A stretch of 64,000 nt of DNA from an uncultured Actinomycetota bacterium (GTDB taxonomy: Bacteria; Actinomycetota; Actinomycetes; Prado026). The notes under the pieces were generated by a model. That model had not been told where the DNA came from. It worked only from the letters and a program-made list of their open reading frames with translations, and ran no database searches. Both the position numbers and the translations under genes were made by a program. The stretch covers positions 1,430,227-1,494,226 of the forward strand of contig CAWKHA010000004.1 in NCBI GenBank assembly GCA_963849365.1, written 5' to 3'. This document shows, one piece after another, positions 1 to 17,329 of the stretch; position 1 is the first letter of the stretch, and each line of letters starts with the position of its first letter.

Positions 1-1025
1 GCCACGACCTGGTCCGGTGGGATCAGTGCACCGGAGACCGCGACGACGCGCAGTGCGGAGAGGTCGAGAGTCTCGCGGACCGCCGCGGGCACTTCGAGCA
101 TCCTGTGCAGCACGACCGGTGTCGCGACGACGACCTCGGCGCGGTGCTCGGCCGCGAGACGGAGCACGCGCTCACCGTCGGGGCGGCGGACGAGGACCTC
201 GGTGGTGTCGTAGAGCGGGCACATCCGGTGGTTGAGCCAGCCCCAGGCATGGAAGAGCGGCGCCGCCACGACATGCGTCGCCCGCTGGCGCAGGGGCAGC
301 GCGTCCAGCAGCGCGATCGCGCCCTCGATCGGGGCGTTGTCGCGGGCCACGCCGCGCGGTGTGCCGGTCGTACCGCTGGTGAGGATCACGTGCCGGGACG
401 GCCGCTCGAGGTGGGGTGGGCGGCCCGGCCGGCTGGATGCCAGCTGGGCCAGCGCCAGCGTTGCCCGGTCCCCGCCGCCGTCCAGGCTGAGCAGCGGCAG
501 CCGGTCGGGTACCCGGTCGGCCAGGTCGTCGTCGCAGAAGACCCATTGGATGCCCTCTCGGGTGGCGATCTCGTCGATCTGGTCGCGGGTGAAGCCGGTG
601 TTGAGGTACACCACGTCGGCACCGGTCCGGGACGTCGCTGCGATGGCCTCGGCGTAGCCGCGGGAGGTGCGGCCCAGGAGGCCGACCGACGTCCCCGCGA
701 CGATCCCCGCGTCCACCAGGCCGGTCGCGATCGCGGCGGTCCGGCGCTCGGCCTCGCGGAAGGTGACCACCGGCAGAACGTCGTCATCGGCGTCGATGAC
801 GGCGGGGGAGTCCGGGTGCCGCGCGGCACCCGTGGACCAGCCCAGGGCAGGCGTCGTGCCCCACTGGACGAGGGCCCGGACGAGCTGTGCGGTCCGAGCC
901 GCGTCGACCGGTGGGAACAGCCGGGCGCGAACTCCGCCACGCACGGCGACGCCGGCCAGCCTCGCCGCGCCGACGAGGTCCAGCGGGTCCAGGGCGCGCA
1001 CCACGTCCCGCGGATCCAGCCTCAC
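1..1025 (-). CDS. AMP-dependent synthetase/ligase (acyl-CoA ligase family); partial, C-terminus lies beyond the window start
   Basis: Minus-strand translation (frame absent from the ORF track because it has no stop inside the window) reads ...REGIQWVFCDDD...HLERPSRHVILTSGTTGTPRGVARDN..., containing the adenylate-forming TSGTTGxPKG-type motif. The GTG start (complement of 1023-1025) overlaps the rarD stop as GTGA. Confidence 0.75.
   Translation of the reverse strand, partial: MRLDPRDVVRALDPLDLVGAARLAGVAVRGGVRARLFPPVDAARTAQLVRALVQWGTTPALGWSTGAARHPDSPAVIDADDDVLPVVTFREAERRTAAIATGLVDAGIVAGTSVGLLGRTSRGYAEAIAATSRTGADVVYLNTGFTRDQIDEIATREGIQWVFCDDDLADRVPDRLPLLSLDGGGDRATLALAQLASSRPGRPPHLERPSRHVILTSGTTGTPRGVARDNAPIEGAIALLDALPLRQRATHVVAAPLFHAWGWLNHRMCPLYDTTEVLVRRPDGERVLRLAAEHRAEVVVATPVVLHRMLEVPAAVRETLDLSALRVVAVSGALIPPDQVV

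Positions 1026-2497: not shown

Positions 2498-2501
<4 letters not shown>
1962..2501 (-). CDS. GNAT family N-acetyltransferase
   Basis: 179 aa with an acetyl-CoA-binding-like WRGRGVGSWLM block. GTG start overlaps the korB stop (GTGA, plus strand tcac 2498-2501). Confidence 0.7.
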
Positions 2502-3566
<1,065 letters not shown>

Positions 3567-3574
<8 letters not shown>

Positions 3575-5471
3575 GGTCGATCACGTCCTGGATGGCGCCG
3601 GCGAGCTCGGCGGCCTTGAACGGCATCCCGCGGACCCGGTTGTAGCCGATCGCGTCGATGAGGTACTTGGAGCGGATCAGCAGCGCGAGCTGCCCGCCGT
3701 AGCCGTAGCCCAGGTTCATCTCCGGGATGAGCACCTTGTCGTATCCCTTGAGGATGTCGCCGAGGTTGGTCGGGAACGGGTTCAGGTGGCGCAGGTGCAC
3801 CCGGGCGACCTGGCCACCGGCCGCGCGCACGCGCCGGCACGCCGCGGCGATCGGCCCGTAGGTGGATCCCCACCCGAGCACGAGCACCCGCGCCGCGCCG
3901 GACGGGTCGTCGACCTCGATCAGGGGGATGGTGGCCGTGATCGCGTCGATCTTGGCCTGGCGCAGCCGGACCATCAGGTCGTGGTTGTCCGGGTCGTAGG
4001 AGATCTGTCCGGTCCGGTCGGCCTTCTCGATCCCGCCGACGCGGTGCTCCAGCCCGGCCGTGCCGGGGACCGCCCATGGCCGCGCCAACGTGTCCGGGTC
4101 GCGCACATAAGGCAAGAACTGCGGTGCTCCGTGCTCGTCGGTGGCGTTCGGGCCGGTCGCGAAGCCGGGCTCGATCACCGGCAGGGTGGCGACGTCCGGG
4201 ATCTTCCACGGCTCCGAGCCGTTGGCGAGGTACCCGTCCGACAGCAGGTACACCGGGGTGCGGTAGGTGACCGCGATCCGGACCGCCTCGATCGCCGCGT
4301 CGAAGCAGTCCGACGGGGACGCCGCCGCCACGATCGGCACCGGGGCCTCCCCGTTGCGCCCGAACATGGCCATCAACAGGTCGGCCTGCTCGGTCTTGGT
4401 CGGCAACCCGGTCGAGGGTCCGCCGCGCTGGATGTCGCAGATCACCAGCGGCAGCTCCAACGAGACCGCCAACCCGACCGTCTCGGCCTTCAGCGCGATA
4501 CCCGGCCCGGAAGTGGTGGTGACCCCCAGCGACCCGCCGAACGAGGCCCCCAGGGCGGCGCCGATCCCGGCGATCTCGTCCTCGGCCTGGAAGGTGCGCA
4601 CCCCGAACCGCTTGTGCCGGGCCAGCTCGTGCAGCACATCGGAGGCCGGGGTGATCGGGTACGCCCCCAAGAACAGCCCCAGCCCGGCCTGCTGCGCGGC
4701 GGCGACCAGCCCGTACGCCAGCGCCAGGTTCCCGGAGATGTTCCGGTACGTCCCGGCCGGCATGGTCGCCGGCGCCACCTCGTACGACACCGAGAAGTCC
4801 TCGGTGGTCTCCCCGAAGTTCCAGCCCGCGGTGAACGCCGCCAGGTTCGCCGCCAGGATCGCCGGGTTGTTCGCGAACTTGGCCTGCAGGAACGCCTGCG
4901 TGCCCGCCGTCGGCCGGTGGTACAGCCAGCAGAGCAGACCCAACGCGAACATGTTCTTGGCCCGCTCGGCCTCCTTCTTGGACACCTCGATGTCCTTGAG
5001 CGCCTGCACCGTCATCGACGTCAACCCGATCGGGTGCACGTTGTAGGCCTCGAGCGTGCCGTCCTCCAACGGGTTCGAGGCATACCCCACCTTCGCCAAC
5101 GCCCGCGCCGAGAACTCGTCGGTGTTCACGATCAGATCCGCCCCCCGCGGCAGATCCCCCAGGTTCGCCTTCAACGCCGCCGGGTTCATCGCCACCAGCA
5201 CGTTCGGCGCATCCCCCGGCGTCAACACATCATGATCGGCGAAGTGCAGCTGGAACGCCGACACCCCCGGCAACGTCCCGGCCGGCGCCCGGATCTCGGC
5301 GGGGAAGTCCGGCAACGTCGACAGGTCGTTCCCGAACGCCGCCGTCTCCGACGTGAACCGGTCCCCGGTCAGCTGCATCCCGTCGCCCGAGTCCCCGGCG
5401 AACCGGATGATCACCCGATCCACATGGACGACCTGCTTGCGCGCCACGAACGCCACCTCTTTCCTGTTCAA
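3567..5471 (-). CDS. korA: 2-oxoglutarate/2-oxoacid:ferredoxin oxidoreductase alpha subunit
   Basis: 634 aa. Conserved KorA/PorA-gamma fusion architecture (..GYPITPASD.., ..LGWGSTYG..). Confidence 0.88.
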
Positions 5472-5628
5472 CGAGTCTAGGCCGGGTCCCCGAATGCGAC
5501 CGTGCTGCCCGCCATGCGGACTCGTCGCGTCGTCCCGGCCCGGTCCGGACCGACTCGTGGCCGACCTGTGTCCAGGTCGTTGCCCACCGCGACCCGGTCC
5601 GGACGGCCGCCGCGGTTACGGTCGACGG

Positions 5629-6678
5629 GTGGCGTCCGGCAGCAGGTCGATCCTGGGCGCCGCCTTGCTGGTCGCGGTGGCGGTCCTGGCCGCGGGCTGC
5701 GCCTCGTCCCCCGATCGAGCCCCCTCGGCCAGCGCTTCCGCGCCGGTGCCGTCGGGTGGCTCCGACGGGTCGGGCCCGGCGTCGGACCTGACCGGGATCG
5801 GCGGCTCGCCGGTCGGTCTGGCGTTCACGCAGGGCTCGGTCTGGGTGGCCGTCGCGTCGTCCAACCAGCTGACCCGGCTGGACGCGGCCACGGGCGAGAT
5901 CCTCGGCACCTTCGCCGTCGGCGACACGCCGCTGCGGTTGGCCGCCACCCCGCGCGGGATCTGGGTGAGCGAGTTCAAGGCCGGCACCGTCGCGCTGGTC
6001 GACCCGGCGACCGGCGCGATCTCCGCCCGGGTCAAGGTCGGCGCGCAGCCCGAGGGCCTGGCGTCGGACGGCAAGCGGCTGTGGGTCGTCCTGCAGCAGG
6101 AGTCGAAGCTGGTCGAGCTGGACGCCGCCACCGGCGCGGCGGGCCGGACGGTCCGGCTGCCGGCCGGTGGTGAGCCGCGGCTGGCTGCCTACGCCCCGGC
6201 GGCTGCCGGCCGGGCGGCGACGGTCTGGGTGCTGGACTTCGGTGCCGACCGCGTCGTGCCGGTGGACGCGGCCACCGGCAAGGTGGGGAGCCCGGTCGCG
6301 GCCTGTCCCGGCCCGCAGGCGCTGTTCGCCGACGGCGGCACCTTGTGGGTGGCCTGCCTGTCCGGCCGGCTGGTGGCCGTGGACCTCACCACCAGGAAGG
6401 TGCGCGGCTCGGTCGACCTGACCGCGACGGACGGTCCGCCGGACGCCGTGACCGTCTCCGGGGGGAAGGTCTGGGTCGGCCTGTCGACGGGTCCGGCCGT
6501 GCTGGCCGTCGACCCGGCGACGATGAAGGTCACCGGCTCGAGCACTGTGGGCGACGCGGGCGCGCTGCCCAACGCGGACATCGACGTGCTGGTCGCCGGG
6601 GGCCAGGTGTGGGTCTCGTCGTGGAACGAGCAGGGCGTGCACCACGACCCCGTGGGGTGGCTCGGGCCGCCCCCCTAG
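5629..6678 (+). CDS. Secreted lipoprotein with a 7-bladed YVTN/NHL-type beta-propeller
   Basis: Signal peptide plus lipobox (LLVAVAVLAAGC). About seven ~40-aa repeats, each with D(A/P)ATG...VG...P and W/V-rich strands. Start chosen as in-frame GTG 5629; the ORF-track ATG at 5353 lies in the korA promoter region, so the start is uncertain. Confidence 0.6.
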   Translation: MASGSRSILGAALLVAVAVLAAGCASSPDRAPSASASAPVPSGGSDGSGPASDLTGIGGSPVGLAFTQGSVWVAVASSNQLTRLDAATGEILGTFAVGDTPLRLAATPRGIWVSEFKAGTVALVDPATGAISARVKVGAQPEGLASDGKRLWVVLQQESKLVELDAATGAAGRTVRLPAGGEPRLAAYAPAAAGRAATVWVLDFGADRVVPVDAATGKVGSPVAACPGPQALFADGGTLWVACLSGRLVAVDLTTRKVRGSVDLTATDGPPDAVTVSGGKVWVGLSTGPAVLAVDPATMKVTGSSTVGDAGALPNADIDVLVAGGQVWVSSWNEQGVHHDPVGWLGPPP

Positions 6679-6738
6679 ACTGCCGCCTGACCGAGCCCGG
6701 AGCGAGGACCGAGCCGGGAGGCGAAGGGTCGAGCGACC

Positions 6739-7128
6739 ATGAGTCCTGCGGCAGCGACGCGTGACTACTTCGGTGCGTGGGGCGTCGTCGGACTGCTCTT
6801 CGCCGTCGCCGTCGGCTTCGTGGTGGTGGCGTTCGCCGCGAACCGCCTTCTGCGGCCCGACCACCCAACCCGCGAGAAGCTGCTGACGTACGAGTGCGGC
6901 GTGGACCCGGTCGGGACCGGCTGGGCCCAGGTGCACGTCCGCTACTACCTCTACGCGTACCTGTACGTCGTGTTCGCCGTCGACGCGGTGTACCTGTTCC
7001 CGTGGGCCACCGTCTTCGCGGCGCCCGGCTTCGGCACCGTGACGCTCGTCGAGATGGGCGTCTTCGTCGGGTTCCTGGCCGTCGGCCTCCTGTACGCCTG
7101 GCGGCGGGGGGTGCTGCGATGGGTGTGA
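6739..7128 (+). CDS. nuoA: NADH-quinone oxidoreductase (complex I-like) subunit A
   Basis: 129 aa, 3 TM helices, YECG motif. Confidence 0.88.
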
Positions 7129-7688
7129 CGGATCTGCCGTCGCCCACCCTCGGTCCGGTGCAGCGGCTCGCACCGCGACCGCTGCGGCTGGTGCTGAACT
7201 GGGGCCGGCGCTACAGCCTCTGGGTGTTCAACTTCGGGCTCGCCTGCTGCGCGATCGAGTTCATCGCGACGTCGATGGCGCGGCACGACTTCATCCGCCT
7301 CGGCGTGATCCCGTTCGCACCGGGGCCGCGGCAGGCGGACCTGATGATCGTCTCCGGCACGGTCACCGACAAGATGGCCCCGGCGGTGCGCCGGCTCTAC
7401 GAGCAGATGCCCGAGCCCAAGTACGTCATCTCGTTCGGTGCCTGCTCGAACTCCGGCGGGCCCTACTGGGACTCGTACTGCGTGACGAAGGGTGTCGACC
7501 AGGTCATCCCGGTGGACGTGTACGTCCCGGGCTGCCCGCCCCGCCCGGAGGCCTTGCTGCAGGGCATCCTCAAGCTCCAGGAGAAGATCGCCACCGAGGA
7601 CCTCCGCGCCCGCTACCGCCCCGGGGAGCTCGGCGCCGACGTGCTGCGCCGGCCGCTGCTCCCGCCGCCGGCCGAGGCCGCCCGGTGA
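7119..7688 (+). CDS. nuoB: Complex I-like subunit B (20 kDa, N2 cluster-binding)
   Basis: CCAIEF...GACSNSGG...VPGCPP motifs. ATG 7119 overlaps nuoA by 10 nt. Confidence 0.9.
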
Positions 7689-8353
7689 GCCCTCGTCCGG
7701 ACGGCGCAGGCACGCGGGCCGCCGAGGCCGCCGGGCTGTTGGCCGGCCGCATGGACGGCACCGCGTCGGAGAGCTTCGGCCAGTGGACGGTCGACGTCCC
7801 CGCCGGTCGCTGGGCGCAGGCGCTCGAGCTGGCCAGGGACGAGCTGGGGCTGGCGTTCTTCGACTGGCTGTCCGCCGTGGACGAGCTGGCCGACGGGTTC
7901 TCGGTCGTCTGCCACCTGGCCGACCCGGACACGCACGCGCACCTGCTGGTCCGGACCCGCGTGGCCGCGGACGCGCCATCGGTCGGCACCGCGACCGGGG
8001 TCTTCCGCGGTGCCTCGTGGCACGAGCGCGAGACACACGAGATGTTCGGCATCGACTTCGCCGGGCACCCGGACCTGCGGCCGCTGCTGCTCCCGGACGG
8101 CTTCGAGGGCCGGCCGCTGCGCAAGGACTTCGTGCTCGCCGCCCGGGTCGCCAAGCCCTTCCCGGGCGCCAAGGAGCCCGGGGAGTCCGAGCGGGACTCG
8201 GCGCCGGCACGGCGCAAGACGCTGCCGCCCGGCGTGCCCGACCCGCAGACCTGGGGACCGCGGCCTCCGGGCGACCGCGGCGGGGACGCGGCAGCCCCGG
8301 CAGTGACGCCGGGCGTCGCCGAGCCTGGCAGCCCGACGCAGGAGGAGCCGTGA
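7685..8353 (+). CDS. nuoC: Complex I-like subunit C (30 kDa) with a P/G/A-rich C-terminal tail
   Basis: [33 protein letters not shown] = complex1_30kDa signature. GTGA overlap with nuoB. Not fused to NuoD. Confidence 0.85.
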
Positions 8354-9309
8354 GCACGGCACTGGACGTCGCGCTGCGCCTGGCCGGCGTGATGGTCGCG
8401 TTCCTGGTGCTCCCGCTGCTCGTCGGCCAGACCGAGCACAAGGTGATGGCCCACATGCAGGCGCGGGTCGGACCCATGTACGCCGGTGCCTTCCACGGCT
8501 GGGCCCAGCTGGTCGCCGACGGCGTGAAGTTCGCGCAGAAGGAGGAGGTCGTCCCGGCGGCCGCGGACCGCACGGTGTTCCGGCTCGCGCCCGCAGTCGC
8601 GCTCGTGCCGTACCTCATCGCGCTGGTGGCGATCCCGCTCGGCCCCGGCCAGGTCGCGCAGGAGCTCGACCTCGGCCTGTTCTTCGTGCTGGCGGTCCTG
8701 GCGATCGGCGTGCTCGGACAGCTGATGGCCGGCTGGGCGAGCGCGAGCAAGTTCGCGCTGATCGGCGGGATCCGGACCGCCGCCCAGCTGATGGCGTACG
8801 AGCTCCCGCTCGTCCTGGCCGCCGCCTCGGTGGCGATGGCCGCGGGCACCCTCTCGCTGACCGGCATCGTGCAGGCGTGGCGGCCGTGGTGGCTGGCCTG
8901 GCAGGCGCTGGCGATGGTGGTGTTCTTCGTCGCCGCGCTGGCCGAGCTCGCCCGGCCACCGTTCGACATGCCGTACGCCGACTCGGAGATCATCTTCGGG
9001 CCGCTGACCGAGTACACCGGGCTGCGGTTCGCGCTGTTCCTGCTCGCCGAGTACGCCGGGATCGTCGTCTTCTCGGCGCTGACCGCGGTGCTGTTCCTGG
9101 GCGGCTGGAAGGGTCCGCTGCCGGAGACGCTCGGCTGGCTCTGGACGCTGCTCAAGACCTTCGCGGTGTCCTTCGTCGTGATCTGGGTGCGGGTCACGTA
9201 CCCGCGGCTGCGCGAGGACCAGCTGCAGCGGCTGGCCTGGCAGCTGCTGGTGCCGCTGGCGCTCACGCAGCTCGTGCTGACCGGCGTGGTGCGGGTGGTG
9301 ACCGCGTGA
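8350..9309 (+). CDS. nuoH: Complex I-like subunit H (membrane, quinone channel)
   Basis: Internal GTG 8350 in the frame of ORF 7492..9309, overlapping the nuoC stop (GTGA). The NuoH/ND1 conserved ELPLV..AAGTLSL..EYAG blocks are present. Confidence 0.88.
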
Positions 9310-9851
9310 GCGCCGAGCCGGCCGAGCCGCCCCCCGCCGGGACCGGTCTGGTGCAGGGGCTGGCGACGACGCTCAGAGCGCTGACCCGCCGCGCGGTGAC
9401 GAACCAGTACCCCGACGTCGAGCCCGAGCTGCCCCCGCGCAGCCGTGGCGTCATCGCGCTGCTGGAGGAGAACTGCACGGTCTGCATGCTGTGCAGCCGC
9501 GAGTGCCCGGACTGGTGCATCTACATCGACTCGCACAAGGAGGTGGTCCCGGCCAAGGAGGAGGGCGCCCGGGACCGCACCAAGAACGTGCTCGACCGGT
9601 TCGCCATCGACTTCTCGCTGTGCATGTACTGCGGCATCTGCATCGAGGTGTGCCCGTTCGACGCTCTGTTCTGGTCGCCGGAGTTCGCGTACTCCGAGTT
9701 CGACATCCGGGACCTCACGCACGAGCGGGACCGGCTCGGACTGTGGATGGCCACCGTCCCGCCGCCGGCCCCCGTCGATGCCGCCGCCGAGGAGCCCAAG
9801 GAGGTGGCCGCAGCCGGCAAGGCCGCTGCGGCGGGCGAGGAGCCGGAATGA
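9306..9851 (+). CDS. nuoI: Complex I-like subunit I (2x[4Fe-4S] ferredoxin)
   Basis: Two CxxCxxCxxxCP motifs ([18 protein letters not shown]). GTGA overlap with nuoH. Confidence 0.9.
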
Positions 9852-10516
9852 CGCTCCCGCTCTGGCTGCCCGCGGCGGCGCTGCCGGGTCCGCCCGGCGC
9901 CGTGCCCGCGCCGGCGTACCTGTCGCCGACGGGCGCCGAGATCGTGCTGCTGCTGCTCGGGGTCGTCGCGGTCGCCTCCGCGCTGCTGGTGGTCACCACC
10001 AGGCAGCTGGTGCACGCGGCGCTGTGGCTGGTCGTCACGCTTGGTGCGGTGGCCGGCTCGTACCTGGTCCTGACGGCCGAGTTCATCGCCTGGGTGCAGG
10101 TGCTCGTGTACGTCGGCGCGGTAGTCGCCCTGCTGCTGTTCGGGCTGATGCTGACCCGGGCGCCGATCGGCGTGTCGCCAGACCTGGACACCCGCAACCG
10201 CCCGCTGGCAGCGGTGGCCGCGCTAGGCACCGCTGCCGCGCTCGTGGCGCTGGTCGTGGACGGCCTGCGGTCGGCGTACGTGGACCTGTCCGTGCACTCC
10301 GGCGGCGGCTCCGCGGAAGCGGCCGGTGCGGCGCTGTTCCGCACCTGGGTGCTGCCGTTCGAGGTCCTGTCGGTGCTGCTGCTGGCCGCCCTCGTCGGCG
10401 CGATCGTGCTGTCCAGGTCGCCGGCCGGCGCCGCGGACGGGACGGACTCCGCTGCCGGCGCCGACCTTCCGGCCGGCCGGCCGCGGCCCCCGTCGCGGTT
10501 CGGGGGAGCCGGCTGA
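9848..10516 (+). CDS. nuoJ: Complex I-like subunit J
   Basis: Hydrophobic 222 aa with ND6/NuoJ-like N-terminal TM block. ATGA overlap with nuoI. Confidence 0.8.
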
Positions 10517-10926
10517 TGCACATCGTGTACCCGGCGGTCGTCTCGGCCCTGCTGTTCTCGATCGGCGTGTACGGCGTGCTCGCCCGGCGCAACGCCATCC
10601 TGGTGCTGATGGCGGTCGAGCTCATGCTCAACGCCGCCAACCTCGACCTCATCGCGTTCGACGTGTGGCTGCGTGACGCCCTGCACTCCGGCCAGGCGAT
10701 GACCCTGTTCGTCATCACGCTCGCCGCGGCCGAGATCGGGCTGGGGCTGGCCATCGTGCTGCTGGTCTACCGGACCCGGTCGACCATCGCGGTCGACGAC
10801 CTCACCGAGATGGGCGAGGGAGCCGCACGGACGCCCGTCGAACCCCGGGAAGCCGCCGAGGCGGCCGAGGCGGCCGATGCGGTCGATGCGGCCGATGCGG
10901 CGGAATCCGCCGGGCCGGCGCGGTGA
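10516..10926 (+). CDS. nuoK: Complex I-like subunit K with an acidic Ala/Glu/Asp-rich C-terminal tail
   Basis: [43 protein letters not shown] = ND4L/NuoK. 1-nt TGATG overlap with nuoJ. Confidence 0.88.
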
Positions 10927-12779
10927 CCGGCTTCTGGCTGCCGGCCGCCCCGCTGGTCGCGGCCGTGGCCGGGTTCGCCGTGCTGCGCCGCGGGCCGCGC
11001 ACGGCGGGCGTGCTGGGCGTGGCCGGCAGCGGGCTCGCCCTGCTCGCGGCCGCAGTGGCCCTGTTCGGGTCGCCCTGGCTGACTCCGGTCCTGACCGATC
11101 TCGCGACGGTGCAGACCGGCGGCCCGCCGGTGCACCTGGCCGCCACCCTCGACGGGCTCGCCGTCGTCGTGTCGGTGATGGTCGGGGTCGTGTCGCTGCT
11201 CGTGCAGCTGTACTCGGTCGAGTACCTGCGCGGCGACCCGCGCTACCCCACGTACGCCGCCTTCGTGTCGCTGTTCACCGCCGCGATGCTGCTCGTGGTC
11301 GTGGCCGGCGACCTGGTGGTGCTGCTGGTCGGCTGGGAAGTCATGGGCCTGTGCTCGTACGTGCTCATCGGGCACCACCGCGAGCTGCCGGAGGCCCGGG
11401 CCGCGGCGCTCAAGGCGTTCCTCACCACGCGCCTGGGTGACGCCGGCTTCGTCGTCGGCGTGATCGTGCTCGGCTGGGCGGCCGGCAGCTTCCGGATCGC
11501 CGACGTGCTCGCCGCCGTCCCGCACCTGCCGGCGGCCACCGTCACCGCGGCCGGGCTGCTGCTCGGCGCGGGCGTGGTCGGCAAGTCCGCGCAGTTCCCG
11601 CTGCACGTCTGGCTGCCGGACGCGATGGCCGGGCCGACTCCCGTGTCGGCGCTCATCCACGCGGCCACGATGGTCGCGGCCGGAGTGTTCGCGGTGGCCC
11701 GGCTCTACCCGGTCTTCGTGGCGTCGCCCGCGACGCTGGCGGTGCTCGGAGTGGTGGCGGCGATCACCATGCTCGGGGCGGCGCTGGCCGCTGTCGCCCA
11801 GGACGACATCAAGCGCGTCCTGGCCTACTCGACGGTGAGCCAGCTGGCGTACATGGTCGGCGCGCTGGCGTGCGGCGGCCGGGACGCCGCGATCTACCAC
11901 CTGCTGGTGCACGCGGCGTTCAAGTCGCTGGGGTTCCTGGCCGCCGGCGCGGTGATCCACGCGGTCGGGTCGAACCTCATGACCCGGATGGGCGGCCTGG
12001 CCCGCTCGATGCCGGTGACGACCGTGACGATGACGATCGCGCTGGCGTCCGGCGCGGGGGTCGTCCCGCTCGCCGGCTTCTTCTCGAAGGAGTCGGTGGT
12101 GTCCGCGGCCGAACGCGCCGCGCGCGGCGAGGTGCCGTCCACCGCGTCCTGGGTCGGCTGGCTCGTCCTGGTCAGCGCGCTGGTGACCGTGGCGGTGACC
12201 GCGGCGTACAGCGCGCGGCTCCTGCTGATGACGTTCGCCGGGCGCTACCGCGGGACGCGCGTCCCGCACGAGGCACCGGCGCTGATGCGGTGGCCGCTGG
12301 TGGTGCTGGCGGTCCCGGCGGCGGCGCTCGGTGTGCTCGGGCTCTCGGCCGGCTGGCTGCCCACCTGGCTGGGAGAGGCCCGGGCCGCCGCCCTGACCCC
12401 CGGCGCCGCGACCGCGGTGGTCTCGCTGGCGCTGGTCGTGCTCGGCGCCGGCGCGGTCTGGCTGCGCTGGCGACCGGCCCCCGACGCCGACCCGGCGGCC
12501 GCCCTCGGTCGGCTGCGTCCGGCGTTCGACAGCGGCTTCGGCGTGGACACGGTCTACGACCGGGTGCTGATCAGGCCGCTGCGCGCGCTCGCCGCCGGCG
12601 TCGTCCGCGCCGACGACGAGGTGGTCTCGGCCGCCGTCCAGGGCAGCGGCGGAGCGACGGTTCGGGCCTCGGTCGGCCTGCGCCGGTTCCAGACCGGCAA
12701 CCCGCAGACGTATCTCACCGGCGCGCTGGCCGGGGTCACGGTGCTGCTGGTCGTTACGGCCGTGGTGGTGTGGACGTGA
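10923..12779 (+). CDS. nuoL: Complex I-like antiporter-like subunit L
   Basis: 618 aa, ND5/NuoL family (..[22 protein letters not shown]..). GTGA overlap with nuoK. Confidence 0.9.
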
Positions 12780-14278
12780 ACGGGCTCGCCGTGCTCGTCC
12801 TGGCCCTGCTGGTGCTGCCGGCCGGGGGAGCGCTCGTGCTGCTGCTGGCCGGCAGCCGGGCCGACGTCTGGGCGCAGTGGTTCGGCGTCGCCGTCTCCGG
12901 TGCGGTGCTGGCGGTGGCGGCCGCGCTGGCCGGTGGCTTCGACCGCGCCGACCCGCGACGCCTGCAGGGCGTCGTGGACACCGCCTGGGTGCCGCAGCTG
13001 GGGCTGCGGTTCCACGTCGGCGTCGACGGGATCTCGCTGCCGCTCGTCGTCCTCACCGCGTTGCTGACCGCGCTGTGCGCCGCGTACACCGTCCGGCACC
13101 TGCCGGACCCGGGCCGCCCGCGCGCGCTGGTCGGCCTCCTGCTGCTGCTCGAGGTCGGGCTGCTCGGGACCTTCGTGGCGCAGGACCTGCTGCTGTTCTT
13201 CGTGTTCTTCGAGGTCGTGCTCGTCCCCATGTACTTCGTCATCGCAGTCTGGGGTGGGCATCGCCGGGTCCCCGCGGCGACGACGTTCATCCTCTACACC
13301 GTCATCGGCTCTGTCGTGATGCTGCTCGGCTTCCTGCTGGTGTGGGTGCGCACCGGGACCACCGACATGGTCGCGCTCTCGGTGCGCGGCGGAGCCGGGA
13401 TGCCGCGGACGGTGCAGGTCGTCGCCATCGTGGCGATCGGCCTGGGCCTGGCGGTGAAGGCGCCCATGTGGCCGCTGCACACCTGGCTGCCCGACGCGCA
13501 CACGGCGGCGCCGACCGTCGGCTCGGTGCTGCTGGCCGGGGTGCTGCTCAAGATGGGCACGTACGGCATGGTGCGGATCGCCGTTCCGGTCCTGCCGCAG
13601 GGCGCGTCCGCGGTCGCGCCGTACCTGGGCGCGCTCGGCGTGGTCGGCATCGTGTACGGCTCGCTCGCCTGCCTCGCCCAGCGTGACCTCAAGCGGCTGG
13701 TCGCGTTCTCCTCGGTCGGCCACATGGGGTTCGTCCTGCTCGGGATCGCGACGCTGACTCCGATCGGCCTCAACGGGGCTCTGTACGCCAACATCGCCCA
13801 CGGGGTCATCACCGGGCTGCTGTTCTTCCTCGTCGGCGGCGTCAAGGACCGGTACGGGACCACCGACCTGGGCGAGCTGCCGCGGTCGCTGTACGCGCGG
13901 GCGCCACGCCTCGGCGGGCTGCTGGCGCTGGCCGCCGTGGCCAGCCTCGGCCTGCCCGGCCTGGCCGGGTTCTGGGGAGAGTTCCTCGCGATGGCGGGTG
14001 CGTTCCGGCCGGCCGCAGGTCTGCACCGGGCGCTGTTCCTGGTGCTGCTGGGGGTGGCCGCCGCCGGCACTGTGCTGACGGCCTACTACCTGCTGCGGGT
14101 CGTGCGCCGCGTCGACCAGGGCGACGGGACCGGGCCGGCCGTGCACGACGTCGACGTCGCCGAGGCCACGGCATGGCTGCCGCTGGCCGCGCTCGCCGTG
14201 CTGCTCGGAGTGCTGCCGGGCGTTCTGCTCGGCCTGTCCGGGCCGGCGGTGGCCGCGCTGCTGGGGGTGGGGTCGTGA
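12776..14278 (+). CDS. nuoM: Complex I-like antiporter-like subunit M
   Basis: ND4/NuoM family (..WLPDAHTAAPTVGSVLLAGVLLKMGTYG..). GTG 12776 overlaps nuoL stop. Confidence 0.9.
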   Translation: MNGLAVLVLALLVLPAGGALVLLLAGSRADVWAQWFGVAVSGAVLAVAAALAGGFDRADPRRLQGVVDTAWVPQLGLRFHVGVDGISLPLVVLTALLTALCAAYTVRHLPDPGRPRALVGLLLLLEVGLLGTFVAQDLLLFFVFFEVVLVPMYFVIAVWGGHRRVPAATTFILYTVIGSVVMLLGFLLVWVRTGTTDMVALSVRGGAGMPRTVQVVAIVAIGLGLAVKAPMWPLHTWLPDAHTAAPTVGSVLLAGVLLKMGTYGMVRIAVPVLPQGASAVAPYLGALGVVGIVYGSLACLAQRDLKRLVAFSSVGHMGFVLLGIATLTPIGLNGALYANIAHGVITGLLFFLVGGVKDRYGTTDLGELPRSLYARAPRLGGLLALAAVASLGLPGLAGFWGEFLAMAGAFRPAAGLHRALFLVLLGVAAAGTVLTAYYLLRVVRRVDQGDGTGPAVHDVDVAEATAWLPLAALAVLLGVLPGVLLGLSGPAVAALLGVGS

Positions 14279-15807
14279 CCGGCGCGGTCCTGGGAGCGGC
14301 GACCGCGGCGACAGTGCCGGGGACCCCGGGGGTGCAGAGCCTGGACTACGTTGCGCTCGCCCCCGTCCTGGTGCTCGCCGCCGGCGCGCTCCTCGTCCTG
14401 CTCGTCGATCTCGCCGCGCCGCGCCGGCCGGCGCTCGTCGGAGGCGTGTCGATCGGCTGCGTCGTCGTGGCGCTCGCCTGCCTCGTCCCGCTGCGCGACG
14501 GGTCACGGGCGACCTTCTGCGTCGCGCCCTCCCCGCCGCTGCCGCCGGCCTGCTCGTACGTCGCCGACCATCTCGCGGTGTCCGTCCAGCTGGTGCTGCT
14601 CGCCGGGGCCGGCGTCGTGGTGCTCCTGTCGATGGCCGAGCGGTCGCTGCCGCCCGGGGAGCTGCACTTCCTGCTGCTGTCGTCGGTGGCCGGGGCGACG
14701 ACGGTGGCGGCGGCCCGTGACCTGGCGACGCTGGTCGTCGCCCTCGAGCTGGTGTCCCTGCCCTCGTTCGCGCTGGTGGCGCTGCGCCGCGACGCCCGAG
14801 CGGCCCAGGCCGGGCTGACCGTCTTCCTGGTCTCGGTGGTGGCCACGGCGGTCACCGTGCTCGGGGTCGCGTTCGTCTACGCCGGGACCGGCACGCTGTT
14901 CCTGCAGCGGACCGCGGTGGCCCTGGCGGGCGCGGGGGTGCGGCAGCCGCTGGTCCTGGCCGGGCTGGTGCTCGTCCTGGCCGCACCCGCGTTCAAGCTG
15001 GCGGCCTTCCCGCTGCACGCCTGGGCCCCCGACACGTACCTGGGTGCGCCCCTGCCGGTGGCCGCCTACCTGTCGGTCGTGTCCAAGGGCGCCGGGCTGG
15101 TCGCGCTGCTGGCGATCACGCTCGGCGGGTTCGCGCCGGCGGCGGGAACCTGGGCGCCGGCCGTCGCGGTGCTGACGGCGGGCACCCTCGTGGTCGGCAA
15201 CCTGGGTGCGTTGCGGCAGCGTTCGGCGGTGCGGCTGCTGGCGTGGTCGTCGGTGGCGCAGGCCGGCTACCTGCTGCTGCCGGTCGCCGCGGCCGGCACC
15301 GCGGGCGTCGGGGGGCTCACCGGGCTGGCCGCGGCCGCGGCCGTCGCGTACCTGGCGGCGTACGCCGCGATGAACCTCGGGGCGTTCGCCGTGGTGGCGG
15401 CTGCCGCACCACCCGGCCGTACGACCGCGTCCCTCCGGCTGGACGACCTGCGCGGGCTGGCCAGGACGCGCCCGGCGCTGGGGCTGTCGCTGGCGTTCTT
15501 CCTCGCCTGCCTGGCCGGGCTGCCCCCGGGGCTGGTCGGGCTGGTCACCAAGGTCCGGGTGCTCGAGCTGCCGGTCCGGTCGGCGAGCGGGTGGCTCGCG
15601 GTCCTGGCCGCCGTGGCGACGGTGGTCGGCCTGGCCTACTACCTGCGGTTCGCGGCGATCCTGTTCGCGCCGCCGGAGGGCTCGGCCGTCGCCGGCCCCG
15701 CCGCCGCGTCGCGGGCGACCACGGGCTGGGCGGTCGGGCTGACCCTGGCCACGACGGTCGTCCTGTCGGCGGCGCCGGCCCTGGTGCTCGGGCTGCTCGG
15801 GCCCTGA
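14275..15807 (+). CDS. nuoN: Complex I-like antiporter-like subunit N
   Basis: ND2/NuoN family hydrophobic protein. GTG 14275 overlaps nuoM stop (GTGA). Confidence 0.85.
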   Translation: MTGAVLGAATAATVPGTPGVQSLDYVALAPVLVLAAGALLVLLVDLAAPRRPALVGGVSIGCVVVALACLVPLRDGSRATFCVAPSPPLPPACSYVADHLAVSVQLVLLAGAGVVVLLSMAERSLPPGELHFLLLSSVAGATTVAAARDLATLVVALELVSLPSFALVALRRDARAAQAGLTVFLVSVVATAVTVLGVAFVYAGTGTLFLQRTAVALAGAGVRQPLVLAGLVLVLAAPAFKLAAFPLHAWAPDTYLGAPLPVAAYLSVVSKGAGLVALLAITLGGFAPAAGTWAPAVAVLTAGTLVVGNLGALRQRSAVRLLAWSSVAQAGYLLLPVAAAGTAGVGGLTGLAAAAAVAYLAAYAAMNLGAFAVVAAAAPPGRTTASLRLDDLRGLARTRPALGLSLAFFLACLAGLPPGLVGLVTKVRVLELPVRSASGWLAVLAAVATVVGLAYYLRFAAILFAPPEGSAVAGPAAASRATTGWAVGLTLATTVVLSAAPALVLGLLGP

Positions 15808-15934
15808 CGTTCAGCCATCTCTCAGCGCCAGGGGGAACACTGGTGCCGGTCCGGCTCGTTCAGCGGGTACGCCACCTCGACGGTGGCGAGGCGACCGGTC
15901 GCTCCTGCGACCGGCACGGGAGGCAGGGACGTTC

Positions 15935-16807
15935 GTGCACCGCTACCACAACGGGCTCAAGACCGCCGTCCTGATCGCGTCGCTCTCGGCGCTGATCATG
16001 GTCGCCGGGGCGCTGATCGGCGGGACCAGGGGTCTGGTCATCGCGTTCGTGATCGCGCTGGCGACCAACGGCTACGCGTACTTCAACAGCGCCAGGCTCG
16101 CCCTGCGCTCGATGAAGGCGTACGAGGTCGACTCGCACCAGCAGCCGGTCATGTACCGGGTCGTGCAGCAGCTGTCGTCGGCAGCCGGGCAGCCCATGCC
16201 GCGCCTGTACGTCTCCCCGACCGACGCGCCGAACGCGTTCGCCACCGGCCGCAACCCCGAGAACGCAGCGGTCTGCTGCACCGAGGGCATCCTCGCGCTG
16301 CTGGACGAGCGCGAGCTACGCGGCGTGCTCGGTCACGAGCTCGCGCACGTCTACAACCGGGACATCCTCATCTCCTCGGTCGCCGCCGCGCTGGCGACGG
16401 TGATCATGTTCCTCGCGCAGCTGGCGTACTTCCTGCCGTTCCTCGGTGGCGGCAACCGTGACAACCGGGACGGGAACGCGCTCGGCGTGCTGCTGGTCGC
16501 GATCCTCGGGCCGGTGGCCGCCGGCCTGATCCAGCTGGCGATCAGCCGGTCCCGCGAGTACCAGGCCGACCAGTCGGGCGCGATGCTCACCCACGACCCG
16601 CTCGCGCTGGCGTCGGCGCTGGCCAAGCTCGACGCGGGCACGGCCCGGAGGCCGCTGAAGCCCACGCCGGACGTGCAGACGACCTCCGCACTGATGATCG
16701 CGAACCCGTTCAACGCGCAGGGGATGTCGCAGCTGTTCTCGACGCACCCGCCGATGGCGGAGCGGATCGCCCGCCTGCAGGAGCTGGCCCGCCAGCTGCA
16801 GGCCTGA
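15935..16807 (+). CDS. htpX: Zinc metalloprotease HtpX (M48 family)
   Basis: HELAH zinc-binding motif, N-terminal TM helices, C-terminal ...HPPMAERI. Confidence 0.88.
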   Translation: MHRYHNGLKTAVLIASLSALIMVAGALIGGTRGLVIAFVIALATNGYAYFNSARLALRSMKAYEVDSHQQPVMYRVVQQLSSAAGQPMPRLYVSPTDAPNAFATGRNPENAAVCCTEGILALLDERELRGVLGHELAHVYNRDILISSVAAALATVIMFLAQLAYFLPFLGGGNRDNRDGNALGVLLVAILGPVAAGLIQLAISRSREYQADQSGAMLTHDPLALASALAKLDAGTARRPLKPTPDVQTTSALMIANPFNAQGMSQLFSTHPPMAERIARLQELARQLQA

Positions 16808-16840
16808 CCCAGCGGGGCACCGACCCCCTGTTCCGCGCGG

Positions 16841-17329
16841 TCAGCGGTAGTTGGTGAACTGGAGCGCGTACTCCAGGTCCTTGTCCTTGAGCAGCGCGAT
16901 GACCGCCTGCAGGTCGTCGCGACTCTTCGAGGAGACCCGCAGCTCGTCGCCCTGGACCTGGACCTTCGCGTTCTTCGGCCCCTCGTCCCGGATGATCTTG
17001 CCGATCTTCTTGGTCGCCTCCTGGGACAGCCCCTGCTTGAGATCCGCGGCGATGCGGTACTCCTTGCCCGACACCTGGGGCTCGCCCGCGTCCAGCGCCT
17101 TCAGCGAGACACCGCGCTTGACCAGCTTGTCCTTGAAGACGTCCAGCACCGCCTTGACCCGGTCCTCCGACGAGGCGCTCATCTGCACCCGCTCGCCCGA
17201 CCAGGCGATCGACGCGCCGACGTTCTTGAAGTCGTAGCGCTGCGCGATCTCCTTGGCGGCCTGGTTCAGTGCGTTGTCGACCTCCTGACGGTCCACCTTG
17301 GAGACGATGTCGAAGCTGGAGTCGGCCAT
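16841..17329 (-). CDS. yajQ: YajQ family (UPF0234) nucleotide-binding protein
   Basis: Minus-strand ORF. The real start is ATG (complement of 17327-17329), giving [36 protein letters not shown]... The longer ORF-track extension runs across the tRNA genes and is an artefact. Confidence 0.8.

What the first reader, a model, noticed from the sequence alone, without database searches (positions are those of the whole stretch)
6739..15807. Ten-gene complex-I-like operon (nuoA-B-C-H-I-J-K-L-M-N) lacking both the NADH-dehydrogenase module (NuoE/F/G) and the quinone-site subunit NuoD
Seen in the sequence: nuoC (7685-8353, a stand-alone 30-kDa subunit) is followed directly by nuoH (GTG 8350), and nuoN is followed by htpX, so D, E, F and G are absent from the operon. 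All nine junctions are start/stop overlaps: 10-nt nuoA/B, GTGA x6, ATGA at I/J and TGATG at J/K. This implies obligate translational coupling. Established knowledge: NuoD carries the quinone-site His/Tyr residues and the NuoB-NuoD interface forms the Q pocket, so 11-subunit Fpo/NDH-1-like complexes keep D even when E/F/G are absent. A D-less 10-subunit set cannot form a canonical Q site unless D is supplied from a second nuo locus. A similar nuoA2..N2 paralogous cluster is annotated in Streptomyces genomes but is functionally uncharacterised. The operon sits directly beside korAB, a reduced-ferredoxin-generating enzyme, which raises the possibility of a ferredoxin-linked rather than NADH-linked module. 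Either it borrows NuoD(EFG) from the main complex or it is a distinct ion-translocating assembly.
Basis: partly seen in the sequence, partly recalled or inferred. Interest (0 to 1): 0.7.

Follow-up and report, generated by a model that had tools for sequence, protein, structure and literature searches.

The report
Actinomycete second complex I operon (nuo2)
This is the known "nuo2" operon of Streptomyces-like bacteria, a second respiratory complex I lacking the NADH-binding module, whose missing NuoD subunit is encoded elsewhere in related genomes, so the gap is real but largely explained.

Summary
Window 6739-15807 (+) carries ten tightly packed genes, nuoA-B-C-H-I-J-K-L-M-N, followed by htpX. 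No NuoD, E, F or G coding capacity exists in any frame of the locus or anywhere in the 64-kb window.

It is an orthologue of the Streptomyces nuo2 operon (SCO4599-4608), which is described in the literature with its function called unclear. The same D-less order occurs in 69 of 83 related actinomycete loci, so it is not an assembly error.

All Fe-S ligands in NuoB2 and NuoI2, and all proton-pumping residues checked in subunits H to N, are conserved. A redox-driven pump is therefore expected.

The missing subunit exists in relatives as an unlinked orphan gene, nuoD2 (380-400 aa, PF00346). I found it standing alone in conserved synteny near the folate/ftsH genes in three genomes. I could not test whether the window's own genome has it.

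NuoD2 has an unusual quinone site: the canonical Tyr is always Trp. korAB lies upstream in most genomes, which gives moderate support to a ferredoxin-linked enzyme.

Verdict: a new member of a known but functionally uncharacterised kind. Interest is modest.

The parts
6739..7128 (+). nuoA2 (129 aa), membrane subunit A/ND3
   Evidence: PF00507 E=8e-33. An acidic residue is present in TM2 (D82), although E. coli D79 aligns to Ala80. 62-78% identical to orthologues in related loci.
7119..7688 (+). nuoB2 (189 aa), carrier of Fe-S cluster N2
   Evidence: PF01058 E=1e-29 and TIGR01957. The four N2 Cys ligands are present (C43, C44, C109, C139) and kept in 83/83 orthologues. Best matches among solved structures are complex I PSST/NuoB chains.
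7685..8353 (+). nuoC2 (222 aa), stand-alone 30-kDa subunit with a conserved C-terminal tail
   Evidence: PF00329 E=2e-34. The family alignment A3 shows a conserved tail, [11 protein letters not shown]...RR..PPGVPDP.TWGP. No D domain is fused or follows.
8350..9309 (+). nuoH2 (319 aa), Q-tunnel/E-channel membrane subunit
   Evidence: PF00146 E=6e-101 and NF004741 above its cutoff. Conserved E29, D57, E65, E151, E213, E221, R281, R288 and D290, aligned to E. coli NuoH.
9306..9851 (+). nuoI2 (181 aa), 2x[4Fe-4S] ferredoxin-like subunit (N6a/N6b)
   Evidence: Fer4 families and TIGR01971. Two CxxCxxCxxxCP motifs are present and kept in 72/72 orthologues.
9848..10516 (+). nuoJ2 (222 aa)
   Evidence: PF00499 E=8e-35. 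The TM3 Tyr (Y88) is conserved.
10516..10926 (+). nuoK2 (136 aa)
   Evidence: PF00420 E=5e-26. The two membrane Glu residues (E35, E73) are conserved. It has an Ala/Glu/Asp-rich C-terminal tail.
10923..12779 (+). nuoL2 (618 aa), antiporter-like subunit
   Evidence: PF00361 plus PF00662; TIGR01974 is matched end to end above its cutoff, while NF005141 scores 509 bits, below its 556 cutoff. E139, D173, K221, H246, H326, H330, K334 and K389 are conserved.
12776..14278 (+). nuoM2 (500 aa), antiporter-like subunit
   Evidence: PF00361 and TIGR01972 E=4e-151. E146, K228, K259, H316, H342 and E402 are conserved.
14275..15807 (+). nuoN2 (510 aa), antiporter-like subunit
   Evidence: PF00361; best NCBIfam match TIGR01770 (NDH_I_N) at 263 bits, below its 332.6 cutoff. 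E158, K241, K271 and K426 are conserved.
15935..16807 (+). htpX-like M48 protease, conserved downstream neighbour
   Evidence: PF01435 E=4e-36. It follows nuoN2 directly in 60 of the 69 complete related loci.
2498..5471 (-). korB (2498-3574) and korA (3567-5471), 2-oxoacid:ferredoxin oxidoreductase; divergent, conserved upstream neighbour
   Evidence: TPP_enzyme_C; POR, POR_N and PFOR_II. KorA lies within 10 kb upstream of nuoA2 in 59-66 of 83 related loci, and is directly divergent (144-418 bp) in six.
5353..6678 (+). Intervening beta-propeller-like ORF (true start probably about 5630-5850), specific to this lineage
   Evidence: GC3 of 0.9-1.0 from about 5620 to 6678. Weak PQQ_2 hit just below the Pfam cutoff. 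No counterpart in the 83 related loci.

Best explanation
The locus is the actinomycete nuo2 operon. It encodes ten of the eleven core subunits of a complex-I-type, N-module-less, redox-driven proton pump: the full membrane arm (A, H, J, K, L, M, N) plus the Fe-S/connecting subunits B, C and I.

The eleventh subunit, the 49-kDa/NuoD homologue that builds the quinone pocket with NuoB and NuoH, is not borrowed from the canonical enzyme. In relatives it is supplied in trans by a dedicated, unlinked paralogue, nuoD2. This step is inferred for this genome.

Electrons would enter from a donor other than NADH. The most likely donor is a reduced ferredoxin, for example one produced by the neighbouring KorAB. 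They would pass through the two 4Fe-4S clusters of NuoI2 to cluster N2 of NuoB2. From there they would reach menaquinone at an atypical NuoD2/NuoH2 site. That reduction would drive proton translocation through H2/A2/J2/K2 and the antiporter-like L2/M2/N2 subunits.

Shown here: the gene content, the conservation of cofactor ligands and pump residues, the conserved D-less architecture, and the existence and synteny of orphan nuoD2 in relatives. Inferred: that NuoD2 assembles with Nuo2, the identity of the donor, the quinone acceptor, and the presence of nuoD2 in this particular genome.

My sub-probabilities are: it is the nuo2 orthologue, about 0.95; NuoD2 is its partner, about 0.7; ferredoxin is the donor, about 0.35.
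For: - Family assignments for all ten genes.
- Orthology with a conserved order A2-B2-C2-H2-I2-J2-K2-L2-M2-N2 in 69 of 83 loci. These come from Streptomyces, Kitasatospora, Streptacidiphilus, Embleya, Actinomadura, Nonomuraea, Streptosporangium, Microbispora, Actinoallomurus, Actinopolymorpha, Nocardioidaceae and uncultured MAGs.
- N2 Cys ligands kept in 83/83 NuoB2, and both 4Fe-4S motifs in 72/72 NuoI2.
- All pump residues checked in H, J, K, L, M and N are kept; in NuoA2 one of the two TM2 acidic positions is Ala.
- Published descriptions of the Streptomyces nuo2 cluster with nuoD2 encoded apart (PMC3765725, PMC8388888, PMC9239103).
- Nuo2 proteins detected by proteomics in S. coelicolor (PMC9739823).
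- Orphan PF00346 genes of 380-393 aa, standing alone in conserved synteny (Methyltransf_28, bPH_2, nuoD2..., folate genes; folK-folB-folP-folE-ftsH-hpt-tilS in two of the three). They occur in S. venezuelae, a MAG contig and GCA_044224695.1.
- NuoD2-type proteins occur in Streptomyces, Kitasatospora, Streptacidiphilus, Embleya and Actinoallomurus, genera that also have nuo2.
- korAB is a conserved upstream neighbour.
- KorA (SCO4594) and SCO4599-4608 show the same abundance pattern in one proteome data set (PMC8981147, PMC9739823).
Against: - nuoD2 could not be looked for in the genome the window comes from. The source contig was not retrievable, and the top-120 hit lists held no protein from it.
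- No experiment shows that NuoD2 binds Nuo2.
- NuoD2 lacks the canonical quinone-ligating Tyr, which is always Trp. It also has a variable region where Asp139 sits in T. thermophilus Nqo4. Canonical quinone chemistry is therefore not assured.
- No ferredoxin gene and no ferredoxin-docking subunit (NdhS-like) was identified in the locus.
- korAB is separated from nuoA2 by a two-component system in most Streptomyces and by an unrelated ORF here.
- No KorA hit lies within the retrieved upstream sequence in 17-24 of the 83 loci, some of which have shortened flanks.
Confidence: 0.7

Rival explanations
1. Hybrid enzyme. Nuo2 subunits do not form their own complex. Instead they swap into the canonical 14-subunit complex I, using its NuoD1 and the NADH module NuoEFG. 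This would give alternative NADH dehydrogenases with different membrane arms, as with the NdhD/NdhF isoforms in cyanobacteria.
For: The idea has been proposed in the literature (PMC3765725, PMC8388888, PMC9239103). The canonical nuoL/M/N genes lie only 5-8 kb upstream of nuo2 on related contigs (L001, L057). Kribbella keeps only B2-C2 and H2 at this locus, which would need partners from elsewhere.
Against: Nuo2 duplicates not just the antiporter-like subunits but also B, C, H and I, that is, every subunit that contacts NuoD. A dedicated nuoD2 exists in genera that also carry nuo2. Nuo2 subunits are only 31-38% identical to the canonical L/M/N encoded on the same contigs, as distant as from E. 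coli. Interchangeable interfaces are therefore unlikely.
Confidence: 0.15
2. The enzyme is a separate 11-subunit complex with NuoD2, but its donor is not ferredoxin. The donor could be F420H2 through an unlinked FpoF-like protein, flavodoxin, or an unknown module. Alternatively it runs in reverse, using the proton gradient and menaquinol to reduce a low-potential carrier.
For: Other N-module-less relatives use F420H2 (Fpo) or flavodoxin (Campylobacter), as established knowledge and PMC4453560 describe. Actinomycetes make F420 (established knowledge). No ferredoxin-docking subunit was seen in the locus.
Against: No FpoF-like or flavodoxin gene lies in the window or within 10 kb in the 83 loci, though this was only indirectly surveyed. 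The conserved neighbour is a ferredoxin-reducing enzyme.
Confidence: 0.2
3. A truly D-less assembly. The ten proteins form a distinct ion-translocating or Mrp-like module without a quinone site, or the operon is a decaying relic.
For: No D gene lies in cis in any of 83 loci. Presence of nuoD2 in this genome is not shown. The Kribbella locus is visibly eroded.
Against: Fe-S ligands in B2 and I2 are invariant across 83 and 72 orthologues, which would be pointless without electron transfer. All ten ORFs are intact with very high GC3. The order is complete in 69 genomes spanning at least nine named genera plus MAGs. The proteins are detected in S. coelicolor (PMC9739823). In every solved complex I, B, C, H and I fold around D (established knowledge; matches).
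Confidence: 0.05

Closest known systems
Streptomyces coelicolor / S. venezuelae / S. ambofaciens nuo2 operon (nuoA2-N2, SCO4599-SCO4608) with unlinked nuoD2
   Same: Same gene order, A2-B2-C2-H2-I2-J2-K2-L2-M2-N2 followed by htpX. korAB lies upstream. There is no D/E/F/G in cis. Mean identity of B2, C2, H2, I2, L2, M2 and N2 to Streptomycetaceae loci is 63-69%. The cluster is described in PMC3765725, PMC8388888 and PMC9239103.
   Different: The window comes from a different, apparently uncultured actinomycete lineage that is roughly equidistant from all named genera. A beta-propeller ORF replaces the AbrC-type two-component system between korA and nuoA2. Presence of nuoD2 is unverified for this genome.
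Cyanobacterial/chloroplast NDH-1 (11 core Ndh subunits, ferredoxin-dependent)
   Same: It also lacks NuoE/F/G. It has the same 11 core subunit families and uses a low-potential donor. NuoB2 and NuoD2 match NdhK and NdhH strongly.
   Different: NDH-1 keeps the canonical Tyr in NdhH and needs extra subunits (NdhS/V/O) for ferredoxin docking (established knowledge). None of these was seen here. In cyanobacteria the ndh genes are scattered, and plastoquinone is the acceptor.
Archaeal Fpo (F420H2:methanophenazine oxidoreductase) and Fpo-like ferredoxin-dependent complexes
   Same: It is an N-module-less complex I relative with A, B, C, D, H, I, J, K, L, M and N homologues. NCBIfam Fpo models give secondary hits.
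   Different: Fpo keeps fpoD in the operon and has FpoF/FpoO. All Fpo model scores here are far below cutoff.
Canonical bacterial 14-subunit NDH-1 (NuoA-N; E. coli, T. thermophilus, M. smegmatis)
   Same: The membrane arm and Fe-S subunits are homologous, with identical cofactor ligands and pump residues.
   Different: There is no NADH module. D is encoded elsewhere, is shorter (about 24-aa deletion) and has Tyr87 replaced by Trp. Identity to the canonical paralogues encoded on related contigs (L001, L057) is 31-38%.

Membership tests
Complex I / NDH-1 superfamily, 11-subunit core (A,B,C,D,H,I,J,K,L,M,N) | Seven membrane subunits A, H, J, K, L, M, N with conserved charged pump residues | tested here: met
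   Pfam and NCBIfam matches. All key Glu/Lys/His residues checked in H, K, L, M and N and the TM3 Tyr in J align with E. coli; in NuoA2 E. coli D79 aligns to Ala80 and E81 to Asp82.
Complex I / NDH-1 superfamily, 11-subunit core (A,B,C,D,H,I,J,K,L,M,N) | NuoB with four Cys ligands of cluster N2, and NuoI with two 4Fe-4S motifs | tested here: met
   C43, C44, C109 and C139 in NuoB2; two CxxCxxCxxxCP motifs in NuoI2. Invariant in 83 and 72 orthologues respectively.
Complex I / NDH-1 superfamily, 11-subunit core (A,B,C,D,H,I,J,K,L,M,N) | A 49-kDa/NuoD subunit encoded with the other core genes | tested here: not met
   No PF00346 or NiFe large-subunit similarity in six frames of the locus, in the 64-kb window, or within 10 kb of 83 orthologous operons.
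Complex I / NDH-1 superfamily, 11-subunit core (A,B,C,D,H,I,J,K,L,M,N) | A NuoD subunit available somewhere in the same genome | not testable with these tools
   The source contig (2,028,939 bp) could not be retrieved. Relatives have orphan nuoD2 and canonical nuo genes just upstream.
NADH-oxidising 14-subunit complex I (Nuo14) | N-module NuoE/F/G (FMN and NADH site) | tested here: not met
   No 24/51/75-kDa family hits. E. coli NuoE/F tblastn was negative in the window and in 83 loci.
Streptomyces-type nuo2 operon | Gene order A2-B2-C2-H2-I2-J2-K2-L2-M2-N2 with htpX downstream and korAB upstream | tested here: met
   The window matches the order seen in 69 of 83 loci. htpX follows in 60, and korA is upstream in 59-66.
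Streptomyces-type nuo2 operon | Orthology of the subunits (closer to Nuo2 than to canonical Nuo1) | tested here: met
   50-91% identity to Nuo2 subunits of named genomes, against 31-38% to canonical L/M/N on related contigs.
Streptomyces-type nuo2 operon | Unlinked nuoD2 paralogue (380-400 aa, NRHDWLS motif) in the genome | not testable with these tools
   Verified only in relatives.
Ferredoxin-dependent NDH-1 (cyanobacterial type) | Ferredoxin-docking accessory subunits (NdhS/NdhV/NdhO) or demonstrated ferredoxin oxidation | tested here: not met
   No additional ORFs lie inside the operon because all junctions overlap. The Pfam scan of the locus gives only core Nuo families. Enzyme activity is not testable here.
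Fpo (F420H2 dehydrogenase) | Matches to Fpo-specific NCBIfam models above cutoff; FpoF/FpoO present | tested here: not met
   FpoC/H/I/J/K/L models score far below their cutoffs. No extra genes are present.

The most novel reading that the evidence does not exclude
Nuo2 plus the orphan NuoD2 forms a distinct respiratory entry point of filamentous actinomycetes. It would be a proton-pumping ferredoxin:menaquinone oxidoreductase coupled to the 2-oxoglutarate:ferredoxin oxidoreductase KorAB. Its acceptor site is remodelled: the canonical quinone-ligating Tyr is invariably Trp, the Asp139 region is variable, and there is a 24-residue deletion. It might therefore bind menaquinone or another acceptor in a way not seen in any characterised complex I.
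Probability: 0.3. Interest if true: 0.65.

Novelty: new member of a known kind. Interest (0 to 1): 0.3.

Why it matters
Streptomycetes and their relatives are major antibiotic producers, and their energy metabolism shapes production. The role of their second complex I has been "unclear" since the first genomes were sequenced.

This analysis shows four things:
- The D-less operon is an intact, widely conserved unit.
- Its cofactor ligands and nearly all its pump residues are kept.
- It has a dedicated but atypical NuoD2 encoded elsewhere.
- It is persistently linked to korAB.

Together these turn a vague annotation into a testable hypothesis: a ferredoxin-driven proton pump with a modified quinone site. 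For this window itself, the finding is an orthologue of a known operon and not a new system.

Tried and rejected
- Fused or hidden NuoD domain: rejected by the six-frame Pfam scan and by tblastn with E. coli and NuoD2-family probes.
- Assembly error or loss of D-G: rejected because the same order occurs in 69 independent genomes.
- Retrieving a Streptomyces nuoD2 through E. coli NuoD against plasmids: 247 records, none from Streptomyces among those shown, so of no use.
- Fishing probe: a 383-aa sequence written from memory was used only to fish. It recovered real Streptomyces proteins at 89-95% identity. All conclusions rest on those real proteins, not on the probe.
- Finding the window's own nuoD2: three routes all failed. 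They were a representative search, then a profile of 11 diverse NuoD2 proteins, then looking for the source contig length of 2,028,939 in the hit lists. No such hit appeared among the 120 listed.
- Extending the window leftwards through EamA and KorB look-ups: not on record. The NuoC2 look-up returned only a 927-bp Logan contig.
- Rex operator (TTGTGAA-N4-TTCACAA, up to 3 mismatches): none in the window.
- Sigma-70 promoter and terminator scan of 5300-17000: nothing above chance.
- The published antisense RNA opposite nuoL2/nuoM2 (PMC3765725) could not be assessed from sequence.
- "Obligate translational coupling": not adopted, because orthologous operons have gaps at several junctions.

Full report
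**Observation.** The window is high-GC (about 71%) actinomycete DNA. Between 6739 and 15807 on the plus strand lie ten ORFs:

| Gene | Coordinates |
|---|---|
| nuoA2 | 6739-7128 |
| nuoB2 | 7119-7688 |
| nuoC2 | 7685-8353 |
| nuoH2 | 8350-9309 |
| nuoI2 | 9306-9851 |
| nuoJ2 | 9848-10516 |
| nuoK2 | 10516-10926 |
| nuoL2 | 10923-12779 |
| nuoM2 | 12776-14278 |
| nuoN2 | 14275-15807 |

They tile the region without gaps. Each matches the expected complex I family in Pfam and NCBIfam with E-values from 1e-26 to 1e-151, apart from NuoI2's Pfam Fer4 hit at 7e-11.

**Absence of D, E, F and G.**
- I translated every stop-to-stop segment of at least 60 aa in all six frames of 5301-17000. There were 86 segments totalling 20,244 residues. 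All were scanned against Pfam. Only the ten Nuo families, Peptidase_M48 and weak beta-propeller families appeared. There was no Complex1_49kDa, no NiFe hydrogenase large subunit and no 24/51/75-kDa family.
- tblastn with E. coli NuoD, NuoCD, NuoE and NuoF against the full 64 kb found only the NuoC domain at 7889-8263.
- Nine diverse members of the NuoD2 family, described below, also found nothing in the window.
- The rest of the window is ordinary. It holds EamA, GNAT and korBA upstream. Downstream come DUF520, a sulfotransferase, aminotransferases, SDR, MaoC dehydratases, murB, adenosine deaminase, then secE-nusG-rplKA-rplJL-rpoBC-rpsLG-fusA-tuf and the ribosomal protein operons.

**One correction.** korAB (2498-5471, minus strand) is divergent and is not directly adjacent. 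The 1.27-kb gap before nuoA2 holds a coding-looking ORF (GC3 0.9-1.0) with weak beta-propeller similarity.

**What it is.** The literature describes this cluster in Streptomyces.
- Moody et al. (PMC3765725) and a later S. ambofaciens study (PMC8388888) state that streptomycetes have a complete nuoA-N operon plus extra copies nuoA2, B2, D2 and H2-N2. These are contiguous, except that nuoD2 is encoded elsewhere.
- Du et al. (PMC9239103) call SCO4599-4608 "nuo2", say its function is unclear, and suggest hybrids with the canonical enzyme.
- The proteins are detected in S. coelicolor proteomes (PMC9739823).

**Distribution and architecture.** A search with the window's NuoC2 found thousands of relatives. 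The exact protein sits on one 2.03-Mb contig from NCBI/ENA. One scan of species-representative genomes with a NuoC2 family alignment returned 80 loci. They come from Streptomyces, Kitasatospora, Streptacidiphilus, Embleya, Wenjunlia, Actinacidiphila, Actinomadura, Actinoallomurus, Nonomuraea, Microbispora, Streptosporangium, Kribbella, Actinopolymorpha, a Nocardioidaceae MAG and several uncultured Actinomycetota MAGs.

I mapped the window's proteins onto these 80 loci plus three metagenomic loci:
- The full order A2-B2-C2-H2-I2-J2-K2-L2-M2-N2 appears in 69 of 83.
- htpX lies immediately downstream in 60 of those 69.
- korA lies upstream in 59-66 of 83.
- Most other loci are cut by contig ends.
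- No E. coli NuoD/E/F probe and no NuoD2 probe hits any of these loci, even at E = 0.1-1.

The D-less architecture is therefore a conserved property of the operon, not an assembly artefact.

The window's lineage is about equally distant from all named genera. Mean identity is 62-69% over seven subunits. It is probably an uncultured actinomycete of the kind seen in long-read soil MAGs.

**Is it functional?**
- NuoB2 has the four Cys ligands of cluster N2, and NuoI2 has both CxxCxxCxxxCP motifs. These are invariant in 83/83 and 72/72 orthologues.
- Aligned to E. coli, all residues of the proton-pumping machinery that I checked in these subunits are present:

| Subunit | Conserved residues |
|---|---|
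| NuoL2 | E139, D173, K221, H246, H326, H330, K334, K389 |
| NuoM2 | E146, K228, K259, H316, H342, E402 |
| NuoN2 | E158, K241, K271, K426 |
| NuoK2 | E35, E73 |
| NuoJ2 | Y88 |
| NuoH2 | E29, D57, E65, E151, E213, E221, R281, R288, D290 |

- In NuoA2, E. coli D79 aligns to Ala80 while E81 aligns to Asp82, so only one of the two TM2 acidic positions is kept.

- All ten ORFs have GC3 of 0.93-0.98.

This is the signature of a working redox-driven pump, not of a relic or a pure antiporter.

**The missing NuoD.**
- To fish for the reported nuoD2 I used a 383-aa probe written from memory. It served only as bait. It recovered real Streptomyces proteins of 380-383 aa with PF00346, at 89-95% identity.
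- One of these, from S. venezuelae CP029189.1, is a lone gene with no nuo neighbour within 10 kb.
- A search of 1.84 billion cluster representatives showed deeper branches of the same short NuoD type, at 45-77% identity and 370-417 aa.
- Two of these, on a MAG contig and in assembly GCA_044224695.1, are again lone genes in the same neighbourhood. The order there is Methyltransf_28, bPH_2, nuoD2, then DUF3180-folK-folB-folP-folE-ftsH-hpt-tilS; the S. venezuelae locus shares Methyltransf_28, bPH_2 and folP.
- A profile of eleven such proteins retrieves named members from Streptomyces, Embleya, Yinghuangia, Kitasatospora, Streptacidiphilus and Actinoallomurus. Five of these genera also appear in the nuo2 list.

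An orphan, syntenic nuoD2 is thus an old and conserved feature of genera that also carry nuo2. It is the natural eleventh subunit.

I could not show that the window's own genome has it. Its contig could not be retrieved, and no hit from it appeared in the capped lists.

**NuoD2 is not a typical NuoD.** Alignments to real T. thermophilus Nqo4 and cyanobacterial NdhH sequences show three differences:
- His38 is kept.
- The quinone-head-group Tyr87 is replaced by Trp in every family member examined (motif NRHDWLS).
- About 24 residues (Nqo4 314-336) are deleted, and the segment around Nqo4 Asp139 is variable.

The acceptor site is therefore remodelled.

**Relation to the canonical enzyme.** On related contigs the end of the canonical nuo operon (nuoL/M/N) lies 5-8 kb upstream of korAB-nuo2 (L001, L057). 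Nuo2 L/M/N are only 31-38% identical to those paralogues. That is no closer than to E. coli, at 32-36%. Nuo2 also has its own B, C, H and I, and there is a dedicated D2. Together these points argue against simple subunit swapping with the canonical complex. The hybrid idea in the literature is nevertheless not excluded.

**Electron donor.** No N-module is present, so NADH is unlikely to be the direct donor. The only recurrent neighbour with redox meaning is KorAB, a 2-oxoacid:ferredoxin oxidoreductase.
- It is directly divergent from nuoA2 (144-418 bp) in six loci, including MAG relatives.
- It lies within about 2-8 kb in most others.
- In one proteome data set KorA (SCO4594) and SCO4599-4608 share the pattern [quoted passage not shown] (PMC8981147, PMC9739823).

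By analogy with cyanobacterial NDH-1 and Fpo-like complexes, a ferredoxin:menaquinone proton pump is the best mechanistic guess. It remains an inference. No ferredoxin gene or docking subunit was found, and no Rex operator or promoter signal was detectable.

**Other points.** The overlapping junctions are typical of high-GC operons and are not conserved in detail. Orthologous operons have gaps of 3-207 nt at several junctions. "Obligate" translational coupling is therefore not supported. Kribbella genomes keep only nuoB2-nuoC2 and, after inserted GNAT and NmrA-like genes, nuoH2 at this locus.

**Verdict.** The system is an orthologue of a known, annotated but biochemically uncharacterised operon. 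The apparent paradox of a complex I without NuoD is most likely resolved by an unlinked nuoD2. Modest interest remains in the conserved korAB link and in the atypical NuoD2 acceptor site.

Noticed in passing
outside the window: P0200, P0241, P0392, P0248, P0250, P0252, P0253, P0256-P0260 (alignment A4); loci L085, L087, L088: The orphan NuoD2 family (370-417 aa) always has Trp where canonical NuoD/NdhH has the quinone-binding Tyr (T. thermophilus Nqo4 Y87), in the motif NRHDWLS. It keeps His38, lacks about 24 residues (Nqo4 314-336) and is variable around Asp139. The gene always stands alone, next to Methyltransf_28/bPH_2 genes and near folate genes (the full folK-folB-folP-folE-ftsH-hpt-tilS run in two of three loci).
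   Followed up: partly
L013, L016, L019 (Kribbella spp.), e.g. L019 9444-13851: Kribbella keeps only nuoB2-nuoC2 and a separated nuoH2. These are intact and 58-78% identical to the window's proteins. GNAT and NmrA/SnoaL genes are inserted between them, and there is no A2 or I2-N2 nearby. This is either an eroded or split nuo2 locus, or evidence that B2/C2/H2 can work with other partners.
   Followed up: partly
window 8147-8350 (NuoC2 residues 155-222) and alignment A3: NuoC2 proteins share a conserved C-terminal tail after the 30-kDa domain: [12 protein letters not shown]...RR..PPGVPDP.TWGP. M. smegmatis NuoC aligns only as far as query residue 171 in the PDB search. The role of the tail is unknown.
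   Followed up: no
window 5353-6678 (+): A coding-looking ORF (GC3 0.9-1.0) with weak PQQ_2/beta-propeller similarity sits between korA and nuoA2. It has no counterpart in the 83 related loci. There, the gap is either under 420 bp or holds a two-component system.
   Followed up: partly
window 10816-10926 (NuoK2 tail), 9738-9851 (NuoI2 tail), 10413-10516 (NuoJ2 tail): Several Nuo2 subunits end in low-complexity Ala/Glu/Asp/Pro-rich tails that are absent from the E. coli homologues. An example is the NuoK2 tail ...[25 protein letters not shown].
   Followed up: no
window 10923-14278, minus strand: Published work reports a conserved antisense RNA opposite nuoL2-nuoM2 in three Streptomyces species (PMC3765725). 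The simple promoter scan found no minus-strand signal here, so its presence in this lineage is unknown.
   Followed up: partly
window 1-1021 (-): The left edge of the window is the 3' part of an AMP-dependent synthetase/ligase-like gene (motif TSGTTGTPRGV) running off the window. The canonical nuo operon, which lies 5-8 kb upstream of korAB on related contigs, is therefore not within the window.
   Followed up: partly
P0026 (metagenomic NuoC2 homologue): One metagenomic NuoC2 homologue carries an internal duplication of the WHERETFEMFG...PLRKEF segment. This is probably an assembly or gene-call artefact.
   Followed up: no
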